IMG/VR virus record: IMGVR_UViG_3300045988_078200
Reading direction: 5' to 3' (one strand)
DNA: 48,007 bases
Origin: a virus
This document shows, piece after piece, positions 1 through 48,007 of the stretch. The position numbers and the translations under genes were made by a program. The notes below the pieces were generated by a model. It searched no databases. It saw only the letters and a list, made by a program, of their open reading frames with translations, and was not told where the DNA came from. Positions within the stretch are counted from its first letter, which is position 1; each line of letters begins with the position of its first letter.

Positions 1-119
1 GAAAGCCTGAACGACCTGATCGAGACGGCGACGGACAGAATCGCGGCGGAGGTTTTGGGGCTAACCACAGAGCAATACGCGGCGGAAGTGCAGGCCGCGG
101 CGGAGAAAGCAAAAAAAGA
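1..119. repeat. Terminal direct repeat, copy 1. It is identical to 47889-48007, indicating circular closure or terminal redundancy.
   Basis: Read directly. GAAAGCCTGAACGACCTGATCGAG...GGCGGAGAAAGCAAAAAAAGA is present at both window ends, 119/119 identical. Confidence 0.97.
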
Positions 120-1527: not shown

Positions 1528-2577
1528 ATGGGACACGTATTCAGTCACCTGTCAAAGATGGACCGATATAAAATCGAAGCGTTGCTGAACAAGGGGATTT
1601 CAAAGCAGGAAATCGCGGACGAATTACATGTGCATGTAAGCACGATTTACCGGGAGATCAAGCGCGCCCGCTGGCAGTATTTGGACGGTGATACATGGAT
1701 TACAGAAGATCGCTATAACCCGGACGGGGCGGAAAAGCGATACCGCGAAAACCTCGCCGCAAAAGGCGCGCCGCTGAAAATTGGGAAAGACTTTGAACTT
1801 GCGGAATACATAGAACAAAAGATTATCGAGGAAGATCGTTCGCCCGCCGCGGCCCTTGCCGAAATCAAGTTGGAGGGACGGACGTTCAAAACCTCGATTT
1901 GCGTAAGCACGCTTTACAGTTACATTACAAAGGGCGTTTTCCTGTCCCTTACCAATAACAATTTGCCGGAGAAATCGAAGCGGAAGCGGGAGTACAAGAA
2001 AGTTGAAAAGACCGGAAAGCGTGCGTCGTATGGGAAAAATATTGAAAAACGCCCGGACGAAGTGGACCAGAGAAGCACTTTCGGACATTGGGAGGGCGAC
2101 ACGGTTTACAGTAAAAAAGACGGGTCAAAAGCCCTGTTTGTGCTGACAGAGCGTTTGACCCGATGGGAAATCATTACAAGAATTAAAGACCGGACGGCGG
2201 CAAGCGTTGTAAAGGCAATGGACCGCATAGAACGGAAATTCGGCGCGGACCTTTTCGCAAAGGCATTCAAGACAATCACATTCGACAACGGGGGCGAGTT
2301 CTCCGACGTGAAGCGGCTGGAACGGTCCGCGGTGCGAAAGGGAAAGCAGAGGACAGCGGCTTACTACTGTCACCCGTATTCATCGTATGAACGCGGGTCA
2401 AATGAGTGCCAGAACAAAATGATTCGCCGGAAGTTTCCGAAAGGAACTGATTTCGGAAAAGTGTCCACGGCGGAGATCGAGGCGGCGGAAGCGTGGATGA
2501 ACAATTATCCGCGTGAAATATTGGGATGGAAAACGGCTGAAATCTGCTTCCGGGAGCAGATCGCCGCCCTCGCCTGA
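1528..2577 (+). CDS. IS30-family DDE transposase/integrase.
   Basis: GGAGGG precedes the ATG at 1528. The N-terminal HTH is ISKQEIADELHVHVSTIYREIKR. The catalytic core shows HWEGDTV, TFDNGGEF and YYCHPYSSYERGSNECQNKMIRRKFPKGTDF. Confidence 0.88.
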   Translation: MGHVFSHLSKMDRYKIEALLNKGISKQEIADELHVHVSTIYREIKRARWQYLDGDTWITEDRYNPDGAEKRYRENLAAKGAPLKIGKDFELAEYIEQKIIEEDRSPAAALAEIKLEGRTFKTSICVSTLYSYITKGVFLSLTNNNLPEKSKRKREYKKVEKTGKRASYGKNIEKRPDEVDQRSTFGHWEGDTVYSKKDGSKALFVLTERLTRWEIITRIKDRTAASVVKAMDRIERKFGADLFAKAFKTITFDNGGEFSDVKRLERSAVRKGKQRTAAYYCHPYSSYERGSNECQNKMIRRKFPKGTDFGKVSTAEIEAAEAWMNNYPREILGWKTAEICFREQIAALA

Positions 2578-3902: not shown

Positions 3903-4449
3903 TTTTGAAGAGATCACCAAAAGCCCGGAAGTGCTGGGCGCGTTCCTTGCCTCTCTTCCGTACTTGGAGGGACCGTGGGACACAGAATTTCAACGTAATT
4001 TCTGCGCCGGGTGCGGACAAGTGACGTGCGACCCGATTTGCCGATACCAGCGGTTCAGGAATAACCCCAGTTGGTGGCTGACCCTTGAAGCGGAGCAATG
4101 CGAACAGGGGACGCACACGAGCGACAAAACCACGGAACAGACGGAACCGAACGTGATCGAAATTGACCCTGCGGAAGCCGAAAAGCTGATAACCACGGAG
4201 CAGGAAGCGGAAACAGAACGTTTGCGGCCCATGTTCCGCTATTTCATGGGGAAAGACCATGAAACGGGAGCAATTGAGATCGGGGCGATGGACGGCGGAA
4301 ATGTAATCACATTTTCGGAGCCGGAGGAAGCGCGCTGGTTCATCAAACATCTATCGGAACTCATTCAGGACCCGACGATTCGCAGGCTGGAAATGCGTAG
4401 GACAAGCCGGGGGGTTGCGGTGGACCGGGAGACGACGGCCAACGGTTGA
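3892..4449 (+). CDS. Hypothetical protein. The start is uncertain; I propose TTG at 3892.
   Basis: ORF 3778-4449. AAAGGAGG (3876-3883) lies 8 nt before the in-frame TTG at 3892. The upstream part of the ORF overlaps the previous gene. Confidence 0.5.
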   Translation: MATNFEEITKSPEVLGAFLASLPYLEGPWDTEFQRNFCAGCGQVTCDPICRYQRFRNNPSWWLTLEAEQCEQGTHTSDKTTEQTEPNVIEIDPAEAEKLITTEQEAETERLRPMFRYFMGKDHETGAIEIGAMDGGNVITFSEPEEARWFIKHLSELIQDPTIRRLEMRRTSRGVAVDRETTANG

Positions 4450-4494
4450 CCTTTACCCCGCACAAATGAAGATTCGATTCGAGCGGGAGGCGCA

Positions 4495-4671
4495 ATGATG
4501 AAATATTCCGTAATCGTCACGTGGTATAGCGGGGAAACCACGGGGGCCGTCATCAATGCAGATGGGCCGAAAGCCGCGTGGGAAAAGCTGTTCGGGTTGT
4601 TCGATTTCCGACATATCAGAGGCGCACAACTCGCGGAAATTCTGACCGTAGAAAGAGGGGCGGCAAAGTGA
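4495..4671 (+). CDS. Small hypothetical protein, 58 aa.
   Basis: GGGAGG precedes the ATG at 4495. The stop overlaps the next start (GTGA). Confidence 0.5.
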   Translation: MMKYSVIVTWYSGETTGAVINADGPKAAWEKLFGLFDFRHIRGAQLAEILTVERGAAK

Positions 4672-5054
4672 AGAAAAAAGACTACCCCGGCGGCGTGAAG
4701 CTGACGGCCACAAAAGCCCGCGCCGTGGCAATGCAGGAATTCGGGACCGCAAAGGGCCTTGAAAAAGAAGAAGTCGCAATGCCCGGCTACTTCAAAATGA
4801 GATTGGGAAGTCTGCTTGTCCGCATTCACCCGGACACCTACGACGGGACGGGGTGCATTGTGGTTTCTGCTGAACTGGCCTGCGCCACGGGAACGAGTGT
4901 GAAATACCTGAACCCCGAAACCCTGCAAGACGATTTCGACGCGCTGGAACGGCATTGCAAGCGCGCCCAGCGGGACGATCTGAAAGATTGGGTGCTAACC
5001 AACGGGGCGGACTACTGTTGCGAGGAAGTCAAGCGGATTTGGGAAAGAGGGTGA
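4668..5054 (+). CDS. Hypothetical protein, about 128 aa.
   Basis: In-frame GTG at 4668, coupled to the preceding stop. This is the 3' part of ORF 4578-5054. Confidence 0.5.
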   Translation: MKKKDYPGGVKLTATKARAVAMQEFGTAKGLEKEEVAMPGYFKMRLGSLLVRIHPDTYDGTGCIVVSAELACATGTSVKYLNPETLQDDFDALERHCKRAQRDDLKDWVLTNGADYCCEEVKRIWERG

Positions 5055-5058
5055 CGGC

Positions 5059-5238
5059 GTGAAAATCCGAATCACCCGCGATACAAAAATTCCACTTGTT
5101 GAGAAAGGCCGGGTTTTCTACGTGCAAGGAGTATCGACGACCGGGGACGGCGAAACAGTCTATTTCATCCACCACGGCGGGAACTATTTGGGAATCCGCG
5201 CCGCGGATTGTGAAGTGATCGAGAGGGAACCGAAATGA
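5059..5238 (+). CDS. Small hypothetical protein, 59 aa.
   Basis: GTG start at 5059. The stop overlaps the next ATG (ATGA at 5235-5238). Confidence 0.45.
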   Translation: MKIRITRDTKIPLVEKGRVFYVQGVSTTGDGETVYFIHHGGNYLGIRAADCEVIEREPK

Positions 5239-5510
5239 AGAACGTAGAGCAAGAGGCCACAAACGGCGTGATCTACGGAGAATCCGGCGAGATCGTGAAG
5301 AACGGGTTGCGTGTTGTCTGCCCACATTGCGGAGAAATCGGACTTTTCCACGGCCACGGCGGAAGCGTGAATATCTGGACCGTGGGGGCAATCGAGCGGC
5401 GGGAATGTACGAAATGCCGTAAGCAGTTTCACACAATCAGTTTGACCGTTCCGGCGGATATGACCCCGGAGGAATTCTATTTGAAAATCAAAGAGGGGGT
5501 GAAGCTGTGA
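5235..5510 (+). CDS. Small zinc-ribbon protein.
   Basis: The pairs CPHC...CTKC occur in a 91-aa ORF. Confidence 0.6.
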   Translation: MKNVEQEATNGVIYGESGEIVKNGLRVVCPHCGEIGLFHGHGGSVNIWTVGAIERRECTKCRKQFHTISLTVPADMTPEEFYLKIKEGVKL

Positions 5511-5686
5511 AGCGTCAGTTCTGCTTGCCCTGCTTCCTCGAACTGAAAAAGGCCGGGAAGCACGATATAAAGCGCGTGGGCGGCGGGGTCAATATGAAAA
5601 TTACCTGCTGGCGGTGCAAACGCCGCCGCTACGGGGCGGAATACGAGATTTCCCGGAAAGGCGGTGCGCGCCGTGACAGTGAATGA
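5507..5686 (+). CDS. Small zinc-ribbon protein, 59 aa.
   Basis: GTG at 5507 overlaps the previous stop. The pairs CLPC...CWRC are present. Confidence 0.45.
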   Translation: MKRQFCLPCFLELKKAGKHDIKRVGGGVNMKITCWRCKRRRYGAEYEISRKGGARRDSE

Positions 5687-5882
5687 ATTGAAGCGGGCTT
5701 TTCTGGATGAACGCCCGGTTGCGTTCGGCGGTATCACCTATCAGAAAATAACGGCGGTGATTTACCGAAAGACCACGGACGGGAAAGGACTTCACGTGCA
5801 AGGCGAACTGCTGGACCGGAACGGGCGCGCCGTTGCAATCGCGGCGGCGGACCGAATCAATTTTGTGGAGGCGACACCATGA
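5664..5882 (+). CDS. Small hypothetical protein.
   Basis: 72-aa ORF in the coupled gene chain. Confidence 0.5.
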   Translation: MRAVTVNELKRAFLDERPVAFGGITYQKITAVIYRKTTDGKGLHVQGELLDRNGRAVAIAAADRINFVEATP

Positions 5883-6202
5883 CGCAGGAAATCAGAACAA
5901 TCACCATTGGAGCGGGACAAGCCCACCCGCGGCGGCGGAGCCAGAAGCACACCCGGCGGCGCGTTCGGCTGAGCGGCTGGACCGTGGCGAAATATGCGGC
6001 CCTGACCGTGGCCGGGGTCCTGCTGTTTCGAGCGGGTGCGGCCTACGCCATGACAGAACGGGGATATAAGGCGATCGGCGGCGAGGTTTTCGCCCTCTTC
6101 CTCCCCGTGTTCTACTACACAATTTCCGAAACGGTGCGGGACTATATCAAGGAAATCAAATCTATTTTTCGGGAGGAAAAGGACCATGAAAAAACTTGCT
6201 GA
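5879..6202 (+). CDS. Small membrane protein with two predicted TM segments.
   Basis: Hydrophobic stretches AKYAALTVAGVLLFRAGAAYA and VFALFLPVFYYTI. Confidence 0.55.
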   Translation: MTQEIRTITIGAGQAHPRRRSQKHTRRRVRLSGWTVAKYAALTVAGVLLFRAGAAYAMTERGYKAIGGEVFALFLPVFYYTISETVRDYIKEIKSIFREEKDHEKTC

Positions 6203-6917
6203 ACTGAAACCGGGCGATCGCTTTCTGTATGGCGGCATTGAGTGGGTCAAATTCGAGGACATCGGCGCGGGAACGCTTTGTCTGGCGGCGGAGCCTGTTT
6301 TTCACCGGGCGTTCGATGAAGAGAACTGCAACGACTGGCGAAAATCCTCTTTGCGCCGGGAACTGAACGGGGCGTTCCTTGACGCGCTGGTTGCGGAGGG
6401 TGCGGACCGAGCCGCGTTCCTCGATTGGGAAAGCGACTTGACCGCCGACGACGGAATGACCGATTACGGAACCGCCGTGGACAAGATCGCTTTGCGGTCC
6501 GACGTGCTTTGCCGCAAGTATCGGGAGATCACCCCGCCCGTGGACGAATGGTGCTGGAACCTGACCCCGTGGACGTGTGACCCTGAATATTCGTACTACG
6601 TCCGCAACGTCAATTCCTCCGGCGCGATGAGCTGGAACTACGCGTTCCACGGCGACAGGGGCGTTCGCCCGCTTTGCTATCTGAAATCTGAAATTTCGGT
6701 ATCTATCCCCGGAGAGAACGACGAAGCGGAGCAGGCCGCACGCCGCGAAGAAATGAAGCTGGAAGCCGTGGACGCGATCATGTCCGCGCTGAACGATTAT
6801 CCGCCCTATTTGTGGGGCGACGCGCTGGGCGCGGCGGTTGCCGCCCTGTTCCGGTCAAAGCAGGACGCGGAAGAGATCGCGCAGGAAGAGGCAGACAAAA
6901 AGGCGGTGGAGGGTTGA
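6186..6917 (+). CDS. Second, remote DGR target protein carrying VR2 at about aa 135-164.
   Basis: 243-aa ORF. ...YYVRNVNSSGAMSWNYAFHGDRGVRPLCYLKSEI matches the TR-encoded peptide. The N-terminal region resembles that of the 40240 target (W..S.RR.LN motif). Confidence 0.85.
   Translation: MKKLAELKPGDRFLYGGIEWVKFEDIGAGTLCLAAEPVFHRAFDEENCNDWRKSSLRRELNGAFLDALVAEGADRAAFLDWESDLTADDGMTDYGTAVDKIALRSDVLCRKYREITPPVDEWCWNLTPWTCDPEYSYYVRNVNSSGAMSWNYAFHGDRGVRPLCYLKSEISVSIPGENDEAEQAARREEMKLEAVDAIMSALNDYPPYLWGDALGAAVAALFRSKQDAEEIAQEEADKKAVEG
6589..6676 (+). repeat. DGR variable region VR2.
   Basis: 88 nt align with TR 38682-38769. There are 6 mismatches, all at TR adenines. Confidence 0.9.
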
Positions 6918-7036
6918 CCCCCTCCCCGCCGCCGCGAAAACCGAATAAAGAAAACCGCCCCGCGCTGTTCTGCAAAGCAACGCGAAGCGGATTCCGCCGA
7001 TGAAAAATCATCTATCAACCTGTTAGAAGTATAGCA

Positions 7037-7073
7037 AAAAACGGCGGAAAAGTCAACAAACAACGCCGTTTTT
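7037..7073 (+). terminator. Terminator-like hairpin with a T-run.
   Basis: AAAAACGGCG pairs with CGCCGTTTTT across a 17-nt loop. Confidence 0.4.
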
Positions 7074-7222
7074 ATGCGGCGTAGCGGGCTTGTAATGGGT
7101 ATTATCATTCCGACGAAGCCTTGTTACGCAGACAGGAAGAAAGCACGGGTTCAGCGGTCCCGCTCCACGTCCTCTTCCCTCTTCACTTTCTCTTTTTGCG
7201 CCGCCGAGGGTAAAGGGGGATT

Positions 7223-7275
7223 GCAAAGGGGGAAGAGGGAGGGGGCGCAGGATAGGAACCCTCTTCCCCCTTTGC
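7223..7275. promoter_or_regulatory. Perfect 17-bp-stem inverted repeat in a purine/pyrimidine-skewed non-coding region. Candidate replication origin.
   Basis: GCAAAGGGGGAAGAGGG (7223-7239) pairs with CCCTCTTCCCCCTTTGC (7259-7275) across a 19-nt loop. It lies 73 bp upstream of the Rep-like gene. Confidence 0.45.
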
Positions 7276-7347
7276 GCCCTGACAGGGAGCAGACCGGAAA
7301 GACAGGACACGCCCGCTTCATCATCCACAGAAAGAGGGTGAAGCAAA

Positions 7348-8166
7348 GTGCGAACATTTATCAGAGAAAAGAAAATCTATTGCGGAAAGAGTTACCGGGA
7401 AGTTGACATATTCCAGTACACAGACGCACAGTACAGAGCCACAAGGCGGACCCGCTCGAAGAAAGTGCGAGAATCGGAGCCAAAGCAAAAGAACCTGAAC
7501 GACATAAACGCCCGGCGGTATTTTATCCAGCTTGGAAACCTGAATTTCGGGGACGACCCGGACGCGCTTCATGTATCGGCTACATACAGCCCGAAATATC
7601 TTCCTGCCACGGTGGAGGACGCGGAGCGGGAGGCGACAAATTACCTCCGCCGGATTTCATACCGCAGGGAGAAAGAGGGATTGCCGCCGCTGAAATACCT
7701 GCTGATCACGTCATACACCACCAAACGAAACAGCGACACCCCCGTTCGCATTCATCACCATATCGTTATGAACGGCGGGTTAGACCGCGACACGGTGGAA
7801 GAGTTGTGGAGGAAGCGGAAGCGCAAGGGCCAGAAGAAAGGTGATCGAATCGGCTTTTGCAACGCTGACCGCCTGCAAGCCGATGAAAACGGCATAGCGG
7901 CCCTTTGTGTCTACCTTGTGAAGCAGAGCGGCGGGAAGAAGCGGTGGACTTCCTCGCAGAACCTTGAACGCCCCACCAGTCGGACGAATGACGGGAAGTA
8001 CAATCGGCGGCAGATCGAGAAGTGGGCGCGGGAGCGTCCGGGGCGGGAGTTTTGGGAAAAGAAATATCCCGGCTGGACCCTGACGGACGAAGATTACGGG
8101 ATTGAGTACAAATACAACGACTTCACGGGTTGGTCAATATACCTGAAATTGAGGAAGAAAGAATAG
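7348..8166 (+). CDS. Putative HUH-type rolling-circle replication initiator (Rep_1-like).
   Basis: RIHHHIVMNG fits HxHxhhh. CVYLVKQ fits the YxVK tyrosine motif. LHVSATYSP may be motif 1. The match was made by eye only. Confidence 0.45.
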   Translation: MRTFIREKKIYCGKSYREVDIFQYTDAQYRATRRTRSKKVRESEPKQKNLNDINARRYFIQLGNLNFGDDPDALHVSATYSPKYLPATVEDAEREATNYLRRISYRREKEGLPPLKYLLITSYTTKRNSDTPVRIHHHIVMNGGLDRDTVEELWRKRKRKGQKKGDRIGFCNADRLQADENGIAALCVYLVKQSGGKKRWTSSQNLERPTSRTNDGKYNRRQIEKWARERPGREFWEKKYPGWTLTDEDYGIEYKYNDFTGWSIYLKLRKKE

Positions 8167-8176
8167 GGGCAGGACG

Positions 8177-8936
8177 ATGAAAAGCGAATATTTCGTGTCC
8201 TGTTCATTCGGGGCAGACAGCACGGCGACGGCGATTCTTGCAATCGAAAAGGGAGAACCGCTTTCGGCACTTGTTTATTGCGAAATCATGTTTGACAAAG
8301 GGAGATCGGCGGAAGTTCCAGAACATCGGGATTTCATATACAACACCGCAATTCCTTATTTTGAGCAACACGGAGTAAAAACAATCGTGTTGCGATCGGA
8401 AAAGACGGCGCGCGAGTGGATGGAATCGCGGGTAATAAAAGGGCCACGAACCGGGAAGAAACACGGTTTCCCGCTTTCGGGCCGTCAAGGTTGGTGCAGT
8501 ATAAAGCGGGACTGTAAATTGCCGCCGCTGAACAAATTCCAGAAAGAACACCCCGGAGCCATTTACTACGAGGGAATTTGCGTTGACGAACAGAACAGAA
8601 TCAAAGAAGAAAAATTGGCGCAAGGCCGCTATCTGCTTGTCAAATACGGTTATACGCAGGAAATGGCGCGGAACCTATGCAAAGAACGGGGTTTGCTGTC
8701 CCCGATCTACAAATTTACAAAGCGGGGGGGGGTGCTTCTTTTGCCCGAATGCCAGCGACGGAGAGTTGCGGCACCTGCGAAAGCACCACCCGGAACTATG
8801 GGCCGAAATGATGAAGATTCAGATGGACCCGGAAACGGTGAGGCCGGGAAAATTTCGAGTTTTCGAGGGGTTGCAGGACATTGAAAGAAATTTCGAGTTA
8901 GAAGAAAATCAGATCAGCTTTTTTGATTTCACATAG
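8177..8936 (+). CDS. PAPS-reductase-family (PP-loop) protein, interrupted by a frameshift in a G9 tract at 8724-8732.
   Basis: The N-terminal ORF (8177-) carries SFGADS, a PP-loop-like motif. The conserved C-terminus CFFCPNASDGELRHLRKHHPELW is in another frame (ORF 8583-8936). G8 or G11 would fuse the two. Confidence 0.7.
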
Positions 8937-38002: not shown

Positions 38003-38238
38003 GGGAATACGCCTGCACGCGGCGGGAACTGTCCTGCATCATCGGGAATCTGTTTGCGGAGCTGGACCCGCCTTGCGCCGCGTGCGCTTCCGACGCTGAC
38101 GAACTGACGATCAGCGGGCGGACCCATACCGGGGCGCAGGCGGTTCTAACTGTCACGGAATGGGGATTCCTGTTCGACGGGGACCCGTCGGAGATCGAAG
38201 AAATCCGGGGAAAGAGGTGCTTACGGCGTGGCGGATGA
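37996..38238 (+). CDS. Small hypothetical protein, possibly a fibre assembly factor.
   Basis: ATG at 37996 overlaps the fibre gene stop. Confidence 0.4.
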   Translation: MLREYACTRRELSCIIGNLFAELDPPCAACASDADELTISGRTHTGAQAVLTVTEWGFLFDGDPSEIEEIRGKRCLRRGG

Positions 38239-38641
38239 AAAGGAATTTATCATCATCACGAAAGCGAAAGATTTAGCCTTTCACACCTACGACATGACCA
38301 CCGCCCGCCGCTTTCCAAAGCGGCACGGGAAACTTGCCGTAGACCTGATGGAATTTGCACGGGAAATCGTGATTCATATTCAGGACGCGAACGAACTTGA
38401 CGTTCAGGACGCGGGAGAATTCCGGGAACGGCGGTATGAACAGAAACAGGCCCTTTCACGCTGTAAAGACATGCTGTTTTTGATCGAACTGGCCGAGCGA
38501 AAGAACCTGATTTCAACGGCGCAATGCGCGGCGTGGACAAAGTACGCCGTGGAAGTAAAACGGATGACGGCCAGTTGGAGGAAAAAGGACCTCGAACGAT
38601 TCACGGAATCCGGACAACGGGGAAACGCGCCGCGGCGGTGA
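38228..38641 (+). CDS. avd: DGR accessory variability determinant (Avd-like four-helix-bundle protein).
   Basis: 137 aa, basic, immediately 5' of the TR. KAKDLAFHTYDMTTARRFPKRHGKLAVDLMEFAREIVIHIQDAN fits the Avd/S23-IVS pattern. Confidence 0.65.
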   Translation: MADEKEFIIITKAKDLAFHTYDMTTARRFPKRHGKLAVDLMEFAREIVIHIQDANELDVQDAGEFRERRYEQKQALSRCKDMLFLIELAERKNLISTAQCAAWTKYAVEVKRMTASWRKKDLERFTESGQRGNAPRR

Positions 38642-38674: not shown

Positions 38675-38769
38675 AGCGTCGAATTCGTACAACGTCCGCA
38701 ACGTCAATTCCTCCGGCGCGATGAACTGGAACAACGCGTACAACGGCAACAGGGGCGTTCGCCCGCTTT
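38675..38769 (+). repeat. DGR template repeat (TR).
   Basis: 95 nt homologous to 40903-40997 and 6589-6676. It carries 22 adenines, and in the VR frame reads YNVRNVNSSGAMNWNNAYNGNRGVRPL-stop. Confidence 0.9.
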
Positions 38770-39023
38770 GATGGAACACCGGGAACGAGTAAGCCGGACG
38801 GCTGAAAGCAGAGGACCATCATCAAAGGAAGCCGCATCCCTCCGCCGCGGTGACAGCGCGACGGTAAATACAAGATTGGTGAAGCAAGGCCCACGGGAAC
38901 CAGCTTCCGCCCCGCCACGGGCGCGCGGCGGGGTCCGATGATGAAGCATTGCGACGGCAGGCGGAGGACCGCTTGCCGCCCCCGCAAGGCGGATTCTATA
39001 CACGGCAAGGAGCATTTTTTATT
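38770..39023 (+). ncRNA. DGR spacer region between TR and RT. It is ORF-free, GC-rich and likely a structured part of the DGR RNA.
   Basis: There is no plausible + strand ORF. Several GC stems are present, for example CCCCGCC...GGCGGGG around 38910-38936. Assigned by position and by analogy with the Bordetella DGR. Confidence 0.5.
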
Positions 39024-40214
39024 ATGCAACAAACAGATTTCGAGCGGGTCCACGATTTCGGGAACCTATACGCGGGGTTCTTAAAGGCCCGCCGGGGCAA
39101 ACGGGGCAAAGCGAGCGTCGCAAAATTTGAAGCAAACCTGCTGGAAGCCCTTTGCCTGCTTTCGGAAATGCTGAAGAACAAGACCTACCGCCCGTCGGAC
39201 TATTTCGTGTTCCGGGTCTACGAGCCAAAAGAACGCATCGTTATGACCAACGCGTTCAAAGACAAGGTGGTTCAGCATTCTTTATGTGACAATGTGTTGG
39301 AGCCTGCATTTTCCCGCGCCTTTATCCGCGACAACTACGCGTCGCAAAAGGGGCGCGGGACGCATGACGGCCTGTATCGGCTGGAAGCGTTTATGCGGTC
39401 CTACTATTTCGAGCGGAAAGCGCGGGAAGAACAACGGTGCCGGGAGGAGGGGTTGCCGCGGCCCGACCCGCGCGCCGCCCGCTATGCGGACGGCTGGGTC
39501 CTGAAATGCGACATATCAAAATATTTCTACTCGATTCCGCATGAACCATTGAAAGCAATGGTGCGCCGCTTCATCCGGGACCCGGACGTTCTATGGCTTG
39601 TCGATATGATCATTGACAGCACGGACGACCCCGGAATTCCGATCGGCAACCAGACTTCACAATGGTTCGCGGTCATGTACCTTTCGGGGCTTGACCATTT
39701 CATAAAAGAGAAATTGGGAATCCGCTACTATGGGCGGTATATGGACGACTTTTACTTGATTCACGAGGACAAGGCGTATTTGCAGTATTGCCGCCGGGAG
39801 ATTGAAAAGTACGTGGCCGGGCTGGGATTGAAGCTGAACAACAAGACAAATATTTTCCCGCTACGGAACGGAATTGATTTTCTTGGATTCCGAACCTATA
39901 TGACCGACACGGGGAAGATCGTGCGCAAGGTAAGGAGGAACAGCAAATGTAACGAGCAACGGAAGTTGAAGAAACAGCGGGGCTTGCTGGACAAGGGGAA
40001 AATCACCCTTGCGGCAATCGAACAGTCTTACGGAAGCTGGCGGAGCCACGCCGAAAAGGGCAACTGTCACCACCTGATCAGGGAAACCGACAGGAAGTTC
40101 AACCGCCTGTTCCCGGAAAGCAAATTGCTATGCAGAAAGAACAAAAGGCCGGAAAAGGAAAGCTATTTCTGCGGTTTTATCGCTGACCCGCGGGAAACGC
40201 TTTCCGAACAGTAA
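39024..40214 (+). CDS. DGR reverse transcriptase.
   Basis: IPIGNQTSQWFA is the DGR-specific [ILV]GxxxSQ motif. GRYMDDFYLI carries YMDD. The gene is adjacent to the TR. Confidence 0.9.
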   Translation: MQQTDFERVHDFGNLYAGFLKARRGKRGKASVAKFEANLLEALCLLSEMLKNKTYRPSDYFVFRVYEPKERIVMTNAFKDKVVQHSLCDNVLEPAFSRAFIRDNYASQKGRGTHDGLYRLEAFMRSYYFERKAREEQRCREEGLPRPDPRAARYADGWVLKCDISKYFYSIPHEPLKAMVRRFIRDPDVLWLVDMIIDSTDDPGIPIGNQTSQWFAVMYLSGLDHFIKEKLGIRYYGRYMDDFYLIHEDKAYLQYCRREIEKYVAGLGLKLNNKTNIFPLRNGIDFLGFRTYMTDTGKIVRKVRRNSKCNEQRKLKKQRGLLDKGKITLAAIEQSYGSWRSHAEKGNCHHLIRETDRKFNRLFPESKLLCRKNKRPEKESYFCGFIADPRETLSEQ

Positions 40215-40239: not shown

Positions 40240-41958
40240 ATGCCGAAAGCATTAAGCACCCTCGCCGTTGGCGCGCTGGTGAAAGACACCGGAACGCTTT
40301 ACAACGGGAAACCGATCATTTGGAAGATCGCGGACAAGAACCACGCCGGGTTTCCGGCGAATTCCGTCACGCTGATCACGGAGCGCATTATCTCGCTGAA
40401 ATGCTTTGACGCTATTGAGCAGAGCAACAGCGACGGAAACCGCCGTTCCTACGGAAACAACCGCTGGATTTGGTCAAATATCCGCCGATGGCTGAACAGT
40501 CAAGCGGGGGCGGGCGCGTGGTACGCGGCCCAGCACGGGCAGGACGCGCCGCCGAACAACGCGAACGTGTGGAGCAACTACAACGAGTACGAGGCGGAAG
40601 CGGGCTTTCTGGCGGGATTCTCCGCGAACTTTATTGCCGCCCTGCTGACCACGAACCGGACCGTCGGCAAAGCGCAGGTGGACGGCGGCGGGACGGAGAC
40701 ATGCACCGACAAAATCTTCTTTGCCACGTCAACGGAAGTCGGCTTGTCGGGCGACGTGGTGGCCGGAAGCAAACTTGCGCTGTTCAGCGACGACGCTTCC
40801 CGGCAGGCAAAGCCGACGGCGGAGGCGGTAAGCAAGAGCGAGTACCAGACAAGCAGTTTGAACGCAAATTCGTTCTGGTACTGGTGGCTTGCGGACGCTT
40901 ACGCGTCGAGTTCGGACGACGTCCGCAACGTCACTTCCTCCGGCGCGATGGACTGGTGCAGCGCGTACGCCGGCAACCGGGGCGTTCGCCCGCTTTGTAA
41001 TCTAAAATCTGAAATCTTGGTATCTGACAGCCCGGATTCGGACGGCGCATACAGCATCGTATGGAACCGCGCCCCGTCGGTCCCGGATTCCATCGACGTT
41101 CCGAGCGACGTTCGGGGCGGCGAAAGCCTGATTGTGAATTGGGGAACGTCCACCGACCCGGACAACAACCTTTCGGGGTACGTCCTCGAACGGCAGTACA
41201 ACGGCGGCGGATGGGCGCAGGTCTACAAGGGAATCAACCGGACGCACACCGACCAGATCACAAAGGGATGGGAGAATGTGGCGTACCGGGTCAAAGCATA
41301 CGACAGCGCGGGCGCGGAATCGGCGTACAAGACCAGCGCGACGCGGACGGTCATCAACAACACGCCGCCCACGATCAGCGGGACAGATACGGACCTTGGG
41401 GCAAAGACCGGAGCGTTCGACCAGAAATACACCGTCACAGACCCGGACAGCGGCCAGACGATCACCGTCGTTGAGAAGATCGACGGGGCGCAAAAGCGGT
41501 CCTACGCCGCGACCAGCGGGCAGGAATACACGTTCAGCGTGACCGCGGATGAATGGCGGAAGCTGTTGAACGGGTCCCACACGCTGACGGTGACGGCGAC
41601 GGACAATTACGGCGGAACCGCGACGCGGACTTACACATTCAGCAAGAACGAAACCGAAATTGAACTGACCCTTGCAACGCCCCTTGAAGCCGACGACATG
41701 GTGACAAAGGCGATCATGTCCATTACCCGGCAGATTCCGGCGGGCGCAGAATTCACCGTGGAGGCGTGCAACAACGGCAACGACGATTCCCCCACGTGGG
41801 AGGACGTTACGCAGGCCGTCACCAGCGGGAGCAAGTTTTTCCTTTCCAACGACAGCAAGACGGCGGCGGAATGGGGATTCAATTTCCGAATCAAGGTGAA
41901 GCGGAACAGCGCAAGCGGGGATTGCTTCATTTCTTCCGTGGGAGGTAATTTTGAATGA
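40240..41958 (+). CDS. DGR target 1. Fibre- or receptor-binding-like protein with the variable domain at about aa 222-253, followed by FN3/Ig-like domains.
   Basis: 572 aa. WYWWLADAYASSSDDVRNVTSSGAMDWCSAYAGNRGVRPLCNLKSEI contains VR1. It is followed by SLIVNWGTSTDPDNNLSGYVLERQYNGGGWAQVYKG (FN3-like). Confidence 0.85.
   Translation: MPKALSTLAVGALVKDTGTLYNGKPIIWKIADKNHAGFPANSVTLITERIISLKCFDAIEQSNSDGNRRSYGNNRWIWSNIRRWLNSQAGAGAWYAAQHGQDAPPNNANVWSNYNEYEAEAGFLAGFSANFIAALLTTNRTVGKAQVDGGGTETCTDKIFFATSTEVGLSGDVVAGSKLALFSDDASRQAKPTAEAVSKSEYQTSSLNANSFWYWWLADAYASSSDDVRNVTSSGAMDWCSAYAGNRGVRPLCNLKSEILVSDSPDSDGAYSIVWNRAPSVPDSIDVPSDVRGGESLIVNWGTSTDPDNNLSGYVLERQYNGGGWAQVYKGINRTHTDQITKGWENVAYRVKAYDSAGAESAYKTSATRTVINNTPPTISGTDTDLGAKTGAFDQKYTVTDPDSGQTITVVEKIDGAQKRSYAATSGQEYTFSVTADEWRKLLNGSHTLTVTATDNYGGTATRTYTFSKNETEIELTLATPLEADDMVTKAIMSITRQIPAGAEFTVEACNNGNDDSPTWEDVTQAVTSGSKFFLSNDSKTAAEWGFNFRIKVKRNSASGDCFISSVGGNFE
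40903..40997 (+). repeat. DGR variable region VR1.
   Basis: 95 nt align with the TR. There are 11 mismatches, 10 of them at TR adenines. Confidence 0.9.
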
Positions 41959-46195: not shown

Positions 46196-46219
46196 CGTTT
46201 CACCCCCTTTCTGTTTATT

Positions 46220-46248
46220 ATTATACTCACGTGAGTATGAAATGTCAA
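46220..46248 (-). promoter_or_regulatory. Leftward consensus promoter TTGACA-N17-TATAAT with the perfect palindromic operator ATACTCACGTGAGTAT (46223-46238) in its spacer and -10 element.
   Basis: On the minus strand the sequence reads TTGACAtttcatactcacgtgagTATAAT. Confidence 0.7.
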
Positions 46249-46269
46249 GAGGAAAACGAAAAAAATTCA

Positions 46270-47471: not shown

Positions 47472-47620
47472 GTGATTACCTCCCATATATGAAACCAGAA
47501 GTTGAAGTGTTGTCGTTACCGTGTCGGCCCCCTTTTCGTGTCGGCCCGTAAGGTTGGCCCCCGCCGTATTCTTTACGCCCCGGCGGGTGGGCGGCTTGCG
47601 CTTCCCTCTTTCTGTCTCTT

Positions 47621-47649
47621 ATTATACTCACGTGAGTATGAAAAAGCAA
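47621..47649 (-). promoter_or_regulatory. Leftward promoter TTGCTT-N17-TATAAT with the perfect palindromic operator ATACTCACGTGAGTAT (47624-47639).
   Basis: On the minus strand the sequence reads TTGCTTtttcatactcacgtgagTATAAT. About 45 bp are similar to the 46205-46250 region. Confidence 0.65.
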
Positions 47650-47668
47650 GATGGGAAGTTGCACAAAA

Positions 47669-47753: not shown

Positions 47754-48007
47754 ATGGAAAAGAAAAAGTATGCGTGCAACACGCGGGCGAAGAACAAGTG
47801 GAACGCCGAAAATTACGACCGCCTTTACCCCTATGTGAAGATCGGGAAAAAGGCGGTCTACCAAAAAGCGGTAGAAGCTGGCGGATTTGAAAGCCTGAAC
47901 GACCTGATCGAGACGGCGACGGACAGAATCGCGGCGGAGGTTTTGGGGCTAACCACAGAGCAATACGCGGCGGAAGTGCAGGCCGCGGCGGAGAAAGCAA
48001 AAAAAGA
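47754..48007 (+). CDS. Small ribbon-helix-helix/Arc-like putative regulator. This is the 5' part; the gene runs off the window end and continues at 1-126.
   Basis: ATG at 47754 follows GGAGG (47741-47745). The translation is MEKKKYACNTRAKNKWNAENYDRLYPYVKIGKKAVYQKAVEAGGFESLNDLIETATDRI... The frame stays open through the terminal repeat. The gene lies directly downstream of a TTGCGT-N17-TATAAT promoter. Confidence 0.65.
   Translation, partial: MEKKKYACNTRAKNKWNAENYDRLYPYVKIGKKAVYQKAVEAGGFESLNDLIETATDRIAAEVLGLTTEQYAAEVQAAAEKAKK
47889..48007. repeat. Terminal direct repeat, copy 2, identical to 1-119.
   Basis: Same comparison as copy 1. Confidence 0.97.

What the first reader, a model, noticed from the sequence alone, without database searches (positions are those of the whole stretch)
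6186..6917. Second, remote DGR variable region in a small early-region gene 32 kb from the TR
Bases 6589-6676 align with TR 38682-38769. There are 6 mismatches, all at TR adenines (38690, 38724, 38732, 38739, 38741, 38747). The IMH-like 3' end is also identical.

The host ORF is only 243 aa. I could see no signal peptide or TM segment in it. It sits among early and replication genes, just upstream of the putative origin and Rep gene, and not in the virion module. Its N-terminal half resembles that of the fibre-module target (WRKSSLRRELNGAF versus WSNIRRWLNSQAG).

Two targets served in trans by one TR are known in some DGRs. A diversified, apparently non-structural early phage protein is unusual. 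It could be a soluble binding protein, for example a diversified anti-defence factor or host-factor binder, or a detachable accessory adhesin.
Basis: partly seen in the sequence, partly recalled or inferred. Interest (0 to 1): 0.82.

Follow-up and report, generated by a model that had tools for sequence, protein, structure and literature searches.

The report
Second, remote phage DGR target gene
A gut phage's mutagenic retroelement rewrites a small binding-protein gene far from the element as well as its neighbouring target. The site is real and active, but this two-target layout is already published for related gut phages.

Summary
**Observation: confirmed.**
- Bases 6589-6676 match the template repeat (TR).
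- All 6 mismatches lie at TR adenines. A seventh lies at 6588/38682.

**The region is still being diversified.**
- A near-identical genome (L001) differs from the window at 11 of 4293 bases. Ten of those are in VR2, all at TR-adenine positions.
- In 10 other genomes, VR2 differs from its own TR at 76/184 adenine positions and 2/590 other positions.
- Across 120 homologues, variability peaks at the AAY-coded residues.

**The gene.**
- The 243-aa product has a single DUF6273 (C-type-lectin-like) domain plus a C-terminal helical tail.
- It is 38-41% identical to the published 'tgt2' target of phages nd4 and nd12.
- The RT-adjacent 572-aa target is a 'tentaclin'.

**Novelty: low.**
- The pairing of a tentaclin next to the RT with a small DUF6273 target 10-17 kb away in the early/replication region is already described. 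It is reported for nd4/nd12, Faecalibacterium phages Lelie/CP11 and Toutatisvirus.
- This is a new member of a known kind.

**Still open.** Nothing here shows whether the small target is a virion protein or a non-structural protein.

The parts
6186..6917 (+). Gene for the small DGR target (243 aa; 'tgt2'-type). It has a single DUF6273 / C-type-lectin-like domain (about residues 1-175) and a C-terminal helical tail (about 177-242).
   Evidence: ORF. phrog_9958 matches full length at E 3.5e-62, and Pfam DUF6273 scores 26.8 bits against a cutoff of 23.5. It is 38-41% identical to nd4/nd12 tgt2. pN/pS is 0.10-0.26 for the N-terminal scaffold and 0.2-0.7 for the tail. In both AF2 models the tail is helical and scores above the lectin-domain core (pLDDT 76-88 and 66-78).
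6588..6676 (+). VR2, the remote variable region (codons 135-164).
   Evidence: It matches TR 38682-38770 with 7 mismatches, all at TR adenines. In 14 genomes, 147/308 adenine-position cells differ from the TR against 34/938 at other positions. Amino-acid entropy peaks at residues 135, 138, 141, 143, 149, 151, 152, 155, 157 and 158.
6658..6676 (+). Adenine-free, G+C-rich 3' end of VR2 (GGGGCGTTCGCCCGCTTTG). It is an IMH-like element, identical in TR and VR1.
   Evidence: It is invariant in nearly all relatives. A role as homing signal is inferred from the BPP-1 paradigm.
6677..6704 (+). 3' flank shared by VR2 and VR1 but absent from the TR. It may mark targets as distinct from the template.
   Evidence: VR2 reads CTATCTGAAATCTGAAATTTCGGTATCT, VR1 reads TAATCTAAAATCTGAAATCTTGGTATCT, and the TR is unrelated at that point. 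It also encodes the conserved LCxLKSEIxVS motif, so protein-level conservation could explain the similarity.
38228..38641 (+). Avd accessory protein of the DGR.
   Evidence: phrog_3206 'Avd protein of DGR', E 7.7e-23. The NCBIfam DivGenRetAVD match is weak and below its cutoff.
38676..38770 (+). Template repeat (TR). The full 95 nt pair with VR1, and 38682-38770 pair with VR2.
   Evidence: All 22 adenines fall on codon positions 1 or 2 in both target reading frames.
38949..40214 (+). DGR reverse transcriptase.
   Evidence: Pfam RVT_1 and phrog_1423 at E 5.7e-132. The closest deposited phage RT is nd12, at 59.5% identity.
40240..41958 (+). Large DGR target (572 aa), a 'tentaclin': N-terminal DUF6273 domain followed by Ig/FN3-like domains.
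   Evidence: phrog_10993 'Hoc-like head decoration' E 1.9e-236, and Pfam DUF6273 over residues 41-257 at E 3e-30. Its N-terminal domain matches solved structure 9qa6_A at E 2.2e-12.
40903..40997 (+). VR1, the RT-proximal variable region.
   Evidence: It has 10 mismatches to the TR at adenines and one T-to-G (TR 38688).

Best explanation
Bases 6588-6676 are a genuine, currently active second variable region (VR2) of the phage's single diversity-generating retroelement (DGR).

**DGR components.** Avd lies at 38228-38641, the TR at 38676-38770 and the RT at 38949-40214.

**Mechanism (inferred from the Bordetella phage BPP-1 paradigm).**
- TR RNA is copied by RT-Avd with misincorporation opposite adenines.
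- The cDNA replaces VR2 in trans, guided by the shared adenine-free G+C-rich 3' end.
- The same process rewrites VR1 in the adjacent 572-aa tentaclin gene.

**Host gene.** It encodes a 243-aa protein with one DUF6273 (C-type-lectin-like) domain and a C-terminal helical tail. It is an orthologue of the published 'tgt2' / 'small DGR target' of gut Clostridia phages.

**Effect.** Diversification randomises about 10-14 residues (135-158), which in published models of its homologues form a surface beta-hairpin. The result is a variable ligand-binding site on a conserved scaffold.

**Shown here.** The TR/VR relationship, adenine specificity, ongoing diversification in populations, homology to tgt2, and the position of the gene in the early/replication region.

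**Inferred.** The retrohoming mechanism, the lectin fold, and the protein's role as a binder of host-surface or gut ligands. I judge an extracellular or virion-associated role somewhat more likely than an intracellular one, but that is not established.
For: **TR/VR relationship.** 7/7 mismatches fall on TR adenines and 0/67 other positions differ; P = 2.5e-5.

**Ongoing diversification.**
- Near-identical genome L001 differs from the window at 11 of 4293 bases. Ten are in VR2, all at TR-adenine positions.
- In 10 other genomes holding both loci, VR2 differs from its own TR at 76/184 adenine positions and 2/590 other positions.
- Across 13 close relatives plus the window, 147/308 adenine-position cells differ from the window TR, against 34/938 elsewhere.
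- Among 120 homologues of 82-96% identity, 12-13 residue types occur exactly at the AAC/AAT/AGG-coded positions. The flanks are nearly invariant.
- All 22 TR adenines lie at codon positions 1 or 2.

**DGR proteins.** RT and Avd are identified by family matches.

**Identity of the target.** phrog_9958 E 3.5e-62, Pfam DUF6273 above its cutoff, and 38-41% identity to nd4/nd12 tgt2.

**Same layout in known phages.**
- nd4: TR ~19.66 kb, VR1 ~21.73 kb, VR2 ~31.39 kb.
- nd12: RT at 18.0 kb, tgt2 at 31.3 kb.
- Lelie: RT at 24.8 kb, small target at 40.0 kb.
- Toutatis: RT at 49.4 kb; gp24 at 11.5 kb lies upstream of the replication initiator and antiterminator Q.

**Literature.** PMC10743442, PMC11792537, bioRxiv 10.1101/2024.10.15.618418.
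Against: - No read-level data were available. 'Active now' is inferred from differences between assemblies, not from heterogeneity within one sample.
- My two AlphaFold2 models were of low confidence over the lectin domain (mean pLDDT 52 and 61). Foldseek gave no significant hit. The fold assignment therefore rests on the Pfam family, on homology to published models, and on the paralogue's match to 9qa6.
- No conserved hairpin was found downstream of VR2. BPP-1 uses such a hairpin to recognise its target.
- Nothing here shows where or when the protein acts.
Confidence: 0.88

Rival explanations
1. The small target is a virion component: a detachable or accessory receptor-binding protein or adhesin, functionally like Mtd. 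It happens to be encoded outside the structural module and docks to the particle through its C-terminal helical tail.
For: - To my knowledge, the experimentally characterised phage DGR targets are virion-surface proteins.
- The authors of PMC10743442 propose this role for nd4/nd12 tgt2.
- The protein shares its TR and reading frame with the virion-type tentaclin.
- The helical tail differs in length and sequence between phage lineages, and it evolves faster than the lectin scaffold (pN/pS 0.2-0.7 against 0.10-0.26). That pattern fits a lineage-specific docking element.
Against: - There is no recognisable virion-anchoring domain: no tentaclin C-terminal Ig domain and no Mtd-like beta-prism. A PDB sequence search found nothing.
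- The gene sits in the early/replication region in at least five phage lineages.
- No proteomic evidence exists.
Confidence: 0.45
2. The small target is a non-virion protein expressed early or from the prophage. It would be a diversified soluble binder acting inside the cell or after release, for example against variable host defence or surface-biogenesis factors, or as a lysogen-benefit factor.
For: - Its position among early/replication genes is conserved in this phage, nd12, nd4, Lelie and Toutatis. In Toutatis it lies upstream of antiterminator Q.
- Its start overlaps the upstream small ORF by 17 nt, which suggests co-translation with the early gene set.
- It has no signal peptide or transmembrane segment.
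- In Toutatisvirus it is a core gene, kept even where the DGR is absent (bioRxiv 10.1101/2024.10.15.618418).
- The related tentaclin of Mushuviridae is reported to be expressed in lysogens and found in vesicles (bioRxiv 10.64898/2026.05.08.723808).
Against: - The evidence is purely positional. All genes from 1152 to 44993 are on one strand, so read-through at late times is possible.
- No hit to defence or anti-defence libraries.
- I know of no precedent for an intracellular DGR target.
Confidence: 0.25
3. VR2 is a relic: a duplicated or recombined copy of the VR/TR sequence that the DGR no longer services.
For: In the window lineage, the first ~7 nt of TR homology seen in relatives (GCGTCGA) are replaced by CCCTGAA. 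This shortens the match at the 5' side.
Against: - VR2 has zero non-adenine mismatches to the TR.
- 10 of the 11 differences from a 99.7%-identical genome are adenine-site changes in VR2.
- The pattern repeats against the cognate TR in 10 genomes.
- The ORF is intact and under purifying selection.
Confidence: 0.02

Closest known systems
nd4_tgt2 / nd12_tgt2, the second DGR targets of gut phages nd4 and nd12 (Baykov et al. 2023, PMC10743442)
   Same: - Sequence homologues (38-41% identity, E 2e-29).
- A single DUF6273 / C-lec domain of about 230-295 aa flanked by short helices, with the VR at the 3' part of the domain.
- Paired with an RT-adjacent tentaclin and sharing one TR.
- The gene lies 11-14 kb from the TR, after the lysis and regulatory genes and among replication genes.
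- The nd12 RT is the closest deposited relative of this RT (59.5%).
   Different: - A different phage lineage: no megablast match to any of 50,697 deposited phage records.
- A longer C-terminal helical tail (about 65 aa).
- No N-terminal DUF3310-like helix as in nd12.
- A rolling-circle-type Rep gene follows, rather than the nd4 replication genes.
Small DGR targets of Faecalibacterium phages Lelie and CP11, and Toutatis gp24 (Gulyaeva et al. 2024, PMC11792537; bioRxiv 10.1101/2024.10.15.618418)
   Same: - A large and a small DUF6273 target served by one TR.
- The small target is remote (17,480 nt in Toutatisvirus) and encoded in the early region.
- Adenine-site variation is seen in alignments of cognate genomes.
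   Different: - Only 29-31% identical to the window protein.
- Shorter (215 aa), with a very short C-terminal tail.
- The host is Faecalibacterium. Relatives of this phage are prophages in other Oscillospiraceae, Ruminococcaceae and Acutalibacter genomes.
Mtd of Bordetella phage BPP-1, the archetypal DGR target
   Same: - C-type-lectin-fold variable protein with the VR at the C-terminal end of the fold.
- AAC-rich TR.
- An IMH-type G+C-rich 3' end.
   Different: - No detectable sequence similarity.
- No beta-prism or beta-sandwich N-terminal domains.
- Mtd is encoded next to its TR/RT and is a proven tail-fibre tip protein. The location of this protein is unknown.
N-terminal DUF6273 domain of the Thomasclavelia ramosa IgA protease (PDB 9qa6; PMC12402451)
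   Same: The only solved structure found here for a DUF6273 domain. The window's tentaclin N-terminal domain matches it at E 2.2e-12, including the segment that aligns with the VR.
   Different: A domain of a secreted, cell-wall-anchored bacterial protease, not a DGR target. The 243-aa protein itself gives no significant PDB sequence hit.

Membership tests
DGR variable region (target of a diversity-generating retroelement) | A near-identical TR/VR pair whose differences are confined to TR adenines | tested here: met
   7/7 mismatches at adenines and 0/67 at other bases. In 10 other genomes: 76/184 against 2/590.
DGR variable region (target of a diversity-generating retroelement) | A cognate DGR-type reverse transcriptase and accessory protein with the TR between them | tested here: met
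   Avd (phrog_3206, E 7.7e-23), TR 38676-38770, RT (RVT_1; phrog_1423, E 5.7e-132). RT clade membership was not tested by phylogeny.
DGR variable region (target of a diversity-generating retroelement) | Evidence of ongoing adenine-specific diversification in populations | tested here: met
   10 of 11 differences from a 99.7%-identical genome fall at TR-adenine sites of VR2. Entropy peaks at AAY codons across 120 homologues. Read-level heterogeneity was not testable.
DGR variable region (target of a diversity-generating retroelement) | An IMH-type G+C-rich element at the 3' end of the VR, and target-specific flanking signals | tested here: inconclusive
   A 19-nt adenine-free G+C-rich end is identical in VR1, VR2 and TR. 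A 28-nt flank is shared by the two VRs only. No conserved downstream hairpin was found. Function is not testable in silico.
DGR variable region (target of a diversity-generating retroelement) | The VR lies in a C-type-lectin / FGE-like fold, at its C-terminal end | tested here: inconclusive
   Pfam DUF6273 is above its cutoff, with the VR on the last 40 profile positions. AF2 models were low-confidence and Foldseek was uninformative. The C-lec fold of DUF6273 is taken from PMC10743442.
'tgt2' / small DUF6273 DGR target of gut Clostridia phages | Sequence homology to nd4/nd12 tgt2 and the single-domain architecture | tested here: met
   E 2e-29 and 38-41% identity over 73-77% of the length. phrog_9958 matches full length. 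All three clades align across the domain.
'tgt2' / small DUF6273 DGR target of gut Clostridia phages | Co-occurrence with an RT-adjacent tentaclin sharing the same TR, with the small target encoded remotely in the early region | tested here: met
   The same layout is seen in nd4, nd12, Lelie and Toutatis.
Tentaclin | [quoted passage not shown] | tested here: not met
   The 243-aa protein has no Ig/FN3 domain and ends in helices. The 572-aa neighbour does fit (phrog_10993; weak Big_9/Big_13 matches below Pfam cutoffs).
Mtd-like tail-fibre tip protein | Homology to Mtd, including the N-terminal beta-prism and beta-sandwich that attach it to the fibre | tested here: not met
   No PDB sequence hit for the family profile at E <= 1. 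No Pfam or PHROG tail annotation.

The most novel reading that the evidence does not exclude
The small DUF6273 target is not a virion protein. It is an early- or prophage-expressed soluble binder, diversified by the DGR, that acts inside the infected cell or lysogen or after release. Its conserved placement among early/replication genes in at least five phage lineages would then reflect function. It would be the first DGR target to act outside the cell or virion surface.
Probability: 0.25. Interest if true: 0.75.

Novelty: new member of a known kind. Interest (0 to 1): 0.3.

Why it matters
This adds a well-documented instance, in an abundant and uncultured lineage of Oscillospiraceae-associated gut phages, of a DGR that services two targets from one template. 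One of those targets is 16-32 kb away.

The comparison across genomes gives clean natural evidence that remote homing is efficient. Two genomes that are 99.7% identical differ almost only at adenine sites of VR2.

The open question is the one the published papers also leave open: what the small, early-region lectin-like target does. Its conserved non-structural neighbourhood makes it a good candidate for testing whether phage DGRs diversify anything other than virion adhesins.

Tried and rejected
- **Structure prediction.** I ran it twice. The shallow alignment A1 gave pLDDT 52. The three-clade alignment A2 gave pLDDT 61 and pTM 0.49. The lectin core stayed below pLDDT 50, and Foldseek against the PDB gave nothing significant. 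The only suggestive hit was 9qa6 at rank 6, E 0.35.\n- **PDB sequence search.** The family profile found nothing.\n- **Deposited phages.** Megablast of 28 kb of the window found nothing.\n- **Defence and naming libraries.** PADLOC and NCBIfam gave no match for the 243-aa protein.\n- **Downstream hairpin.** I looked for a BPP-1-style hairpin after VR2 and VR1 and found no shared structure.\n- **Terminators and promoters.** No convincing + strand terminator or promoter lies around the gene.\n- **Assembly bubble in Acutalibacter sp. 1XD8-33.** Two ~1.7-kb contigs looked like a possible bubble caused by the DGR. They differ at 195 scattered positions, so they are two related prophages and not VR variants.\n- **Short contigs joining the early region to the DGR cassette.** I considered them as deletion derivatives. 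The one junction tested is unique in IMG/VR, so a chimera cannot be excluded.\n- **Exact look-up of homologue P0001.** It returned nothing.

Full report
**1. The observation**

An ungapped comparison shows that window 6589-6676 matches 38683-38770. There are six mismatches in that span, at TR 38691, 38725, 38733, 38740, 38742 and 38748. All are adenines in the TR. One base further upstream, 6588 (T) faces TR 38682 (A). That is a seventh adenine mismatch, and it completes codon 135 (AAT to TAT).

None of the 67 non-adenine positions differs. Given random placement, the probability that all 7 mismatches fall on the 22 adenines of 89 positions is 2.5e-5. The last 19 nt (GGGGCGTTCGCCCGCTTTG, 6658-6676) contain no adenine and are identical in VR2, TR and VR1. 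Repeat finding over the whole window recovers the same three-copy family: 6590, 38684 and 40911.

**2. The retroelement**

- The TR (38676-38770) lies between an Avd gene (38228-38641; phrog_3206, E 7.7e-23) and a reverse transcriptase gene (38949-40214; RVT_1; phrog_1423, E 5.7e-132).
- VR1 (40903-40997) lies in the adjacent 572-aa gene. It has ten adenine mismatches and one T-to-G.
- All 22 TR adenines sit at codon positions 1 or 2 in both targets, which share a reading frame relative to the TR. In that frame the TR reads NSYNVRNVNSSGAMNWNNAYNGNRGVRPL.

**3. Is VR2 still being rewritten?**

Reads were not available, so I used independent assemblies.

- a. IMG/VR contig L001 aligns to window 4409-8701 at 99.74% identity. 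Of its 11 differences, 10 lie in 6595-6657, each at a TR-adenine position. Only one lies in the remaining 4204 bases.
- b. Across 13 close relatives plus the window, VR2 differs from the window TR at 147 of 308 adenine-position cells. At other positions it differs at 34 of 938. Most of those 34 are shared lineage differences.
- c. Ten IMG/VR genomes carry both the small-target locus and the RT locus. In these, VR2 differs from its own TR at 76/184 adenine positions and 2/590 others.
- d. In 120 protein homologues of 82-96% identity, 12-13 residue types occur at positions 135, 138, 141, 143, 149, 151, 152, 155, 157 and 158. These are exactly the AAC/AAT/AGG codons of the TR. Neighbouring scaffold residues are invariant.
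- e. Outside the VR, the lectin scaffold is under purifying selection (pN/pS 0.10-0.26). The C-terminal tail is less constrained (0.2-0.7).

A decaying duplicate is therefore excluded.

**4. The protein**

The 243-aa product matches phrog_9958 over its full length (E 3.5e-62). It matches Pfam DUF6273 above the gathering score, through the last 40 profile positions, which contain the VR. It has no transmembrane segment (maximum hydropathy 0.87) and, by eye, no signal peptide.

Its similarity to the 572-aa target is significant only over residues ~90-181 (BLASTP 4e-13; hhalign probability 98% for 124-180). The 572-aa protein is a full DUF6273 domain followed by Ig/FN3-like domains. It matches phrog_10993 'Hoc-like head decoration' (E 1.9e-236), which makes it a tentaclin and not a tail fibre. 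[quoted passage not shown]

My two AlphaFold2 runs on the 243-aa protein were poor over the lectin core (mean pLDDT 52 and 61). They agreed on a C-terminal two-helix tail at residues ~177-242, the better-scoring part of both models (pLDDT 76-88 and 66-78). Foldseek gave no significant match. The lectin fold is therefore taken from family membership and from published models, not shown here.

**5. Genomic context**

The window ends in a 119-bp direct repeat. An ENA contig of the same length carries the same genome rotated. The genome is therefore a 47,888-bp circle.

Gene order on the + strand is:
- a Cro-like HTH gene (1152-1400);
- an IS30-like DDE transposase or integrase (1528-2577; phrog_4646);
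- about ten small ORFs;
- the small target (6186-6917), whose start overlaps the preceding 107-aa ORF by 17 nt;
- a 430-bp gap;
- Rep (7348-8166; phrog_3584);
- a PAPS-reductase-like gene, RecU, Dam, ParA and ParB;
- terminase and the virion genes;
- Avd-TR-RT and the tentaclin;
- the lysis genes.

The 'early/replication region' description is thus supported by annotation. Expression timing was not tested. VR2 is 32.1 kb from the TR on this map and 15.8 kb around the circle. Relatives occur as prophages in Oscillospiraceae, Ruminococcaceae, Acutalibacter, Oscillibacter and Dysosmobacter genomes.

**6. Comparison with what is known**

tblastn against deposited phages finds the protein's relatives in phages nd12 and nd4 (41% and 38% identity) and in Faecalibacterium phages Lelie and Toutatis (31% and 29%). 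The table gives approximate positions of the DGR and the small target in each; '-' means I did not locate that feature.

| Phage | RT | TR | VR1 | Small target | Context of small target |
|---|---|---|---|---|---|
| nd4 | 19.9 kb | ~19.66 kb | ~21.73 kb (tentaclin) | VR2 ~31.39 kb in the 234-aa protein WRQ08026.1 | After the lysin, before replication genes |
| nd12 | 18.0 kb | - | - | 31.3 kb | After an IS30 transposase and small ORFs |
| Lelie | 24.8 kb | - | - | 40.0 kb | - |
| Toutatis | 49.4 kb | - | - | gp24 at 11.5 kb | Upstream of the replication initiator and antiterminator Q |

Three papers describe this architecture.
- Baykov et al. 2023 (PMC10743442) named the large target tentaclin. 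They modelled tgt2 as a single C-lec domain flanked by short helices, with the VR forming a surface beta-hairpin.
- Gulyaeva et al. 2024 (PMC11792537) reported large and small DUF6273 targets in Lelie and CP11, with adenine-site variation at both VRs of CP11.
- A 2024 preprint (10.1101/2024.10.15.618418) reported the Toutatisvirus second VR 17,480 nt from the TR. It lies in a core gene present in 98.8% of genomes and is kept even where the DGR is missing.

None of these establishes the small target's function. The suggestions are an Mtd-like receptor-binding role, or binding to host or intestinal surfaces.

**7. Family size**

An exhaustive HMMER scan found 1001 clusters (at 50% identity) with E <= 1e-3 and 519 with E <= 1e-10. 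Most of the best 150 are proteins of 170-310 aa that match query residues 1 to ~180. The C-terminal tail is conserved only among the closest clusters.

**8. Verdict**

It is a new member of a published kind and not a new phenomenon. What remains interesting is unresolved: a DGR target that sits, across several phage lineages, among early/replication genes and has no recognisable virion-anchoring domain. I put about 0.45 on a virion-associated accessory adhesin and about 0.25 on a non-virion binder. Virion proteomics and transcript timing on an inducible isolate would decide between them.

Noticed in passing
window 1-119 and 47889-48007: An exact 119-bp terminal direct repeat. The same genome exists as a rotated 48,007-bp ENA contig (ERZ27260735 k119_163196). 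The window is therefore a complete circular 47,888-bp assembly, and the repeat length equals the assembler k-mer.
   Followed up: partly
window 40915 (VR1) against 38688 (TR): VR1 carries one non-adenine mismatch (TR T, VR1 G) among 11 differences. VR2 has none. Baykov et al. report similar rare non-adenine substitutions in nd4/nd12-like phages.
   Followed up: no
window 6582-6588; loci L002-L009 and L011: The 5' boundary of VR2 differs between relatives. In several, VR2 matches the TR from GCGTCGAA (TR 38676 onward, residues A-S). The window, L001, L054, L010 and L030 instead have CCCTGAAT (P-E), so TR homology starts about 6 nt later. This may mark how far cDNA replacement extends in each lineage.
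   Followed up: partly
L031/L089 (IMGVR_UViG_3300029574_000041, 6.7 kb) and L020/L084 (IMGVR_UViG_3300010278_000422, 10.3 kb): Two short contigs join the early region (up to window ~7900 and ~11574) directly to ~37120 and ~37601 (tail fibre, Avd, TR, RT, tentaclin). They skip 26-29 kb of replication and virion genes but keep the DGR and both targets. The one junction searched is unique in IMG/VR, so these may be deletion derivatives or assembly chimeras.
   Followed up: partly
window 7223-7239 / 7259-7275: A perfect 17-nt inverted repeat (GCAAAGGGGGAAGAGGG / CCCTCTTCCCCCTTTGC, 19-nt loop) lies in the 430-bp gap between the small target and the Rep gene. Further purine-rich and pyrimidine-rich partial copies lie nearby. 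It is a candidate origin or Rep recognition hairpin.
   Followed up: no
window 46203-46250 and 47604-47651: A 48-nt repeat (88% identical) contains the palindrome ATACTCACGTGAGTAT. It lies in the divergently transcribed region between the lysis genes and the Cro-like gene, and looks like a pair of operator sites.
   Followed up: no
window 5879-6202: A 107-aa ORF with two hydrophobic stretches (Kyte-Doolittle maximum 1.57) overlaps the small target's start codon by 17 nt. It is a possible small membrane protein that may be co-translated with the DGR target. It has no family assignment; a faint phrog_34327 match is the only hit.
   Followed up: partly
window 1528-2577: An IS30-like DDE transposase (HTH_38 + rve; phrog_4646, E 2.4e-135) sits where an integrase would be expected. 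nd12 has the same arrangement. Relatives are integrated in large bacterial contigs, so it is probably the phage integrase.
   Followed up: partly
window 40240-41070: [quoted passage not shown] The segment that aligns with the VR is present in the protease.
   Followed up: partly
L144 and L145 (Acutalibacter sp. 1XD8-33, NZ_RAZF01000077.1 and NZ_RAZF01000078.1): One isolate assembly holds two ~1.7-kb contigs, each with a copy of the small-target gene. They differ at 195 scattered positions, so they are two related prophages and not DGR variants of one locus.
   Followed up: yes
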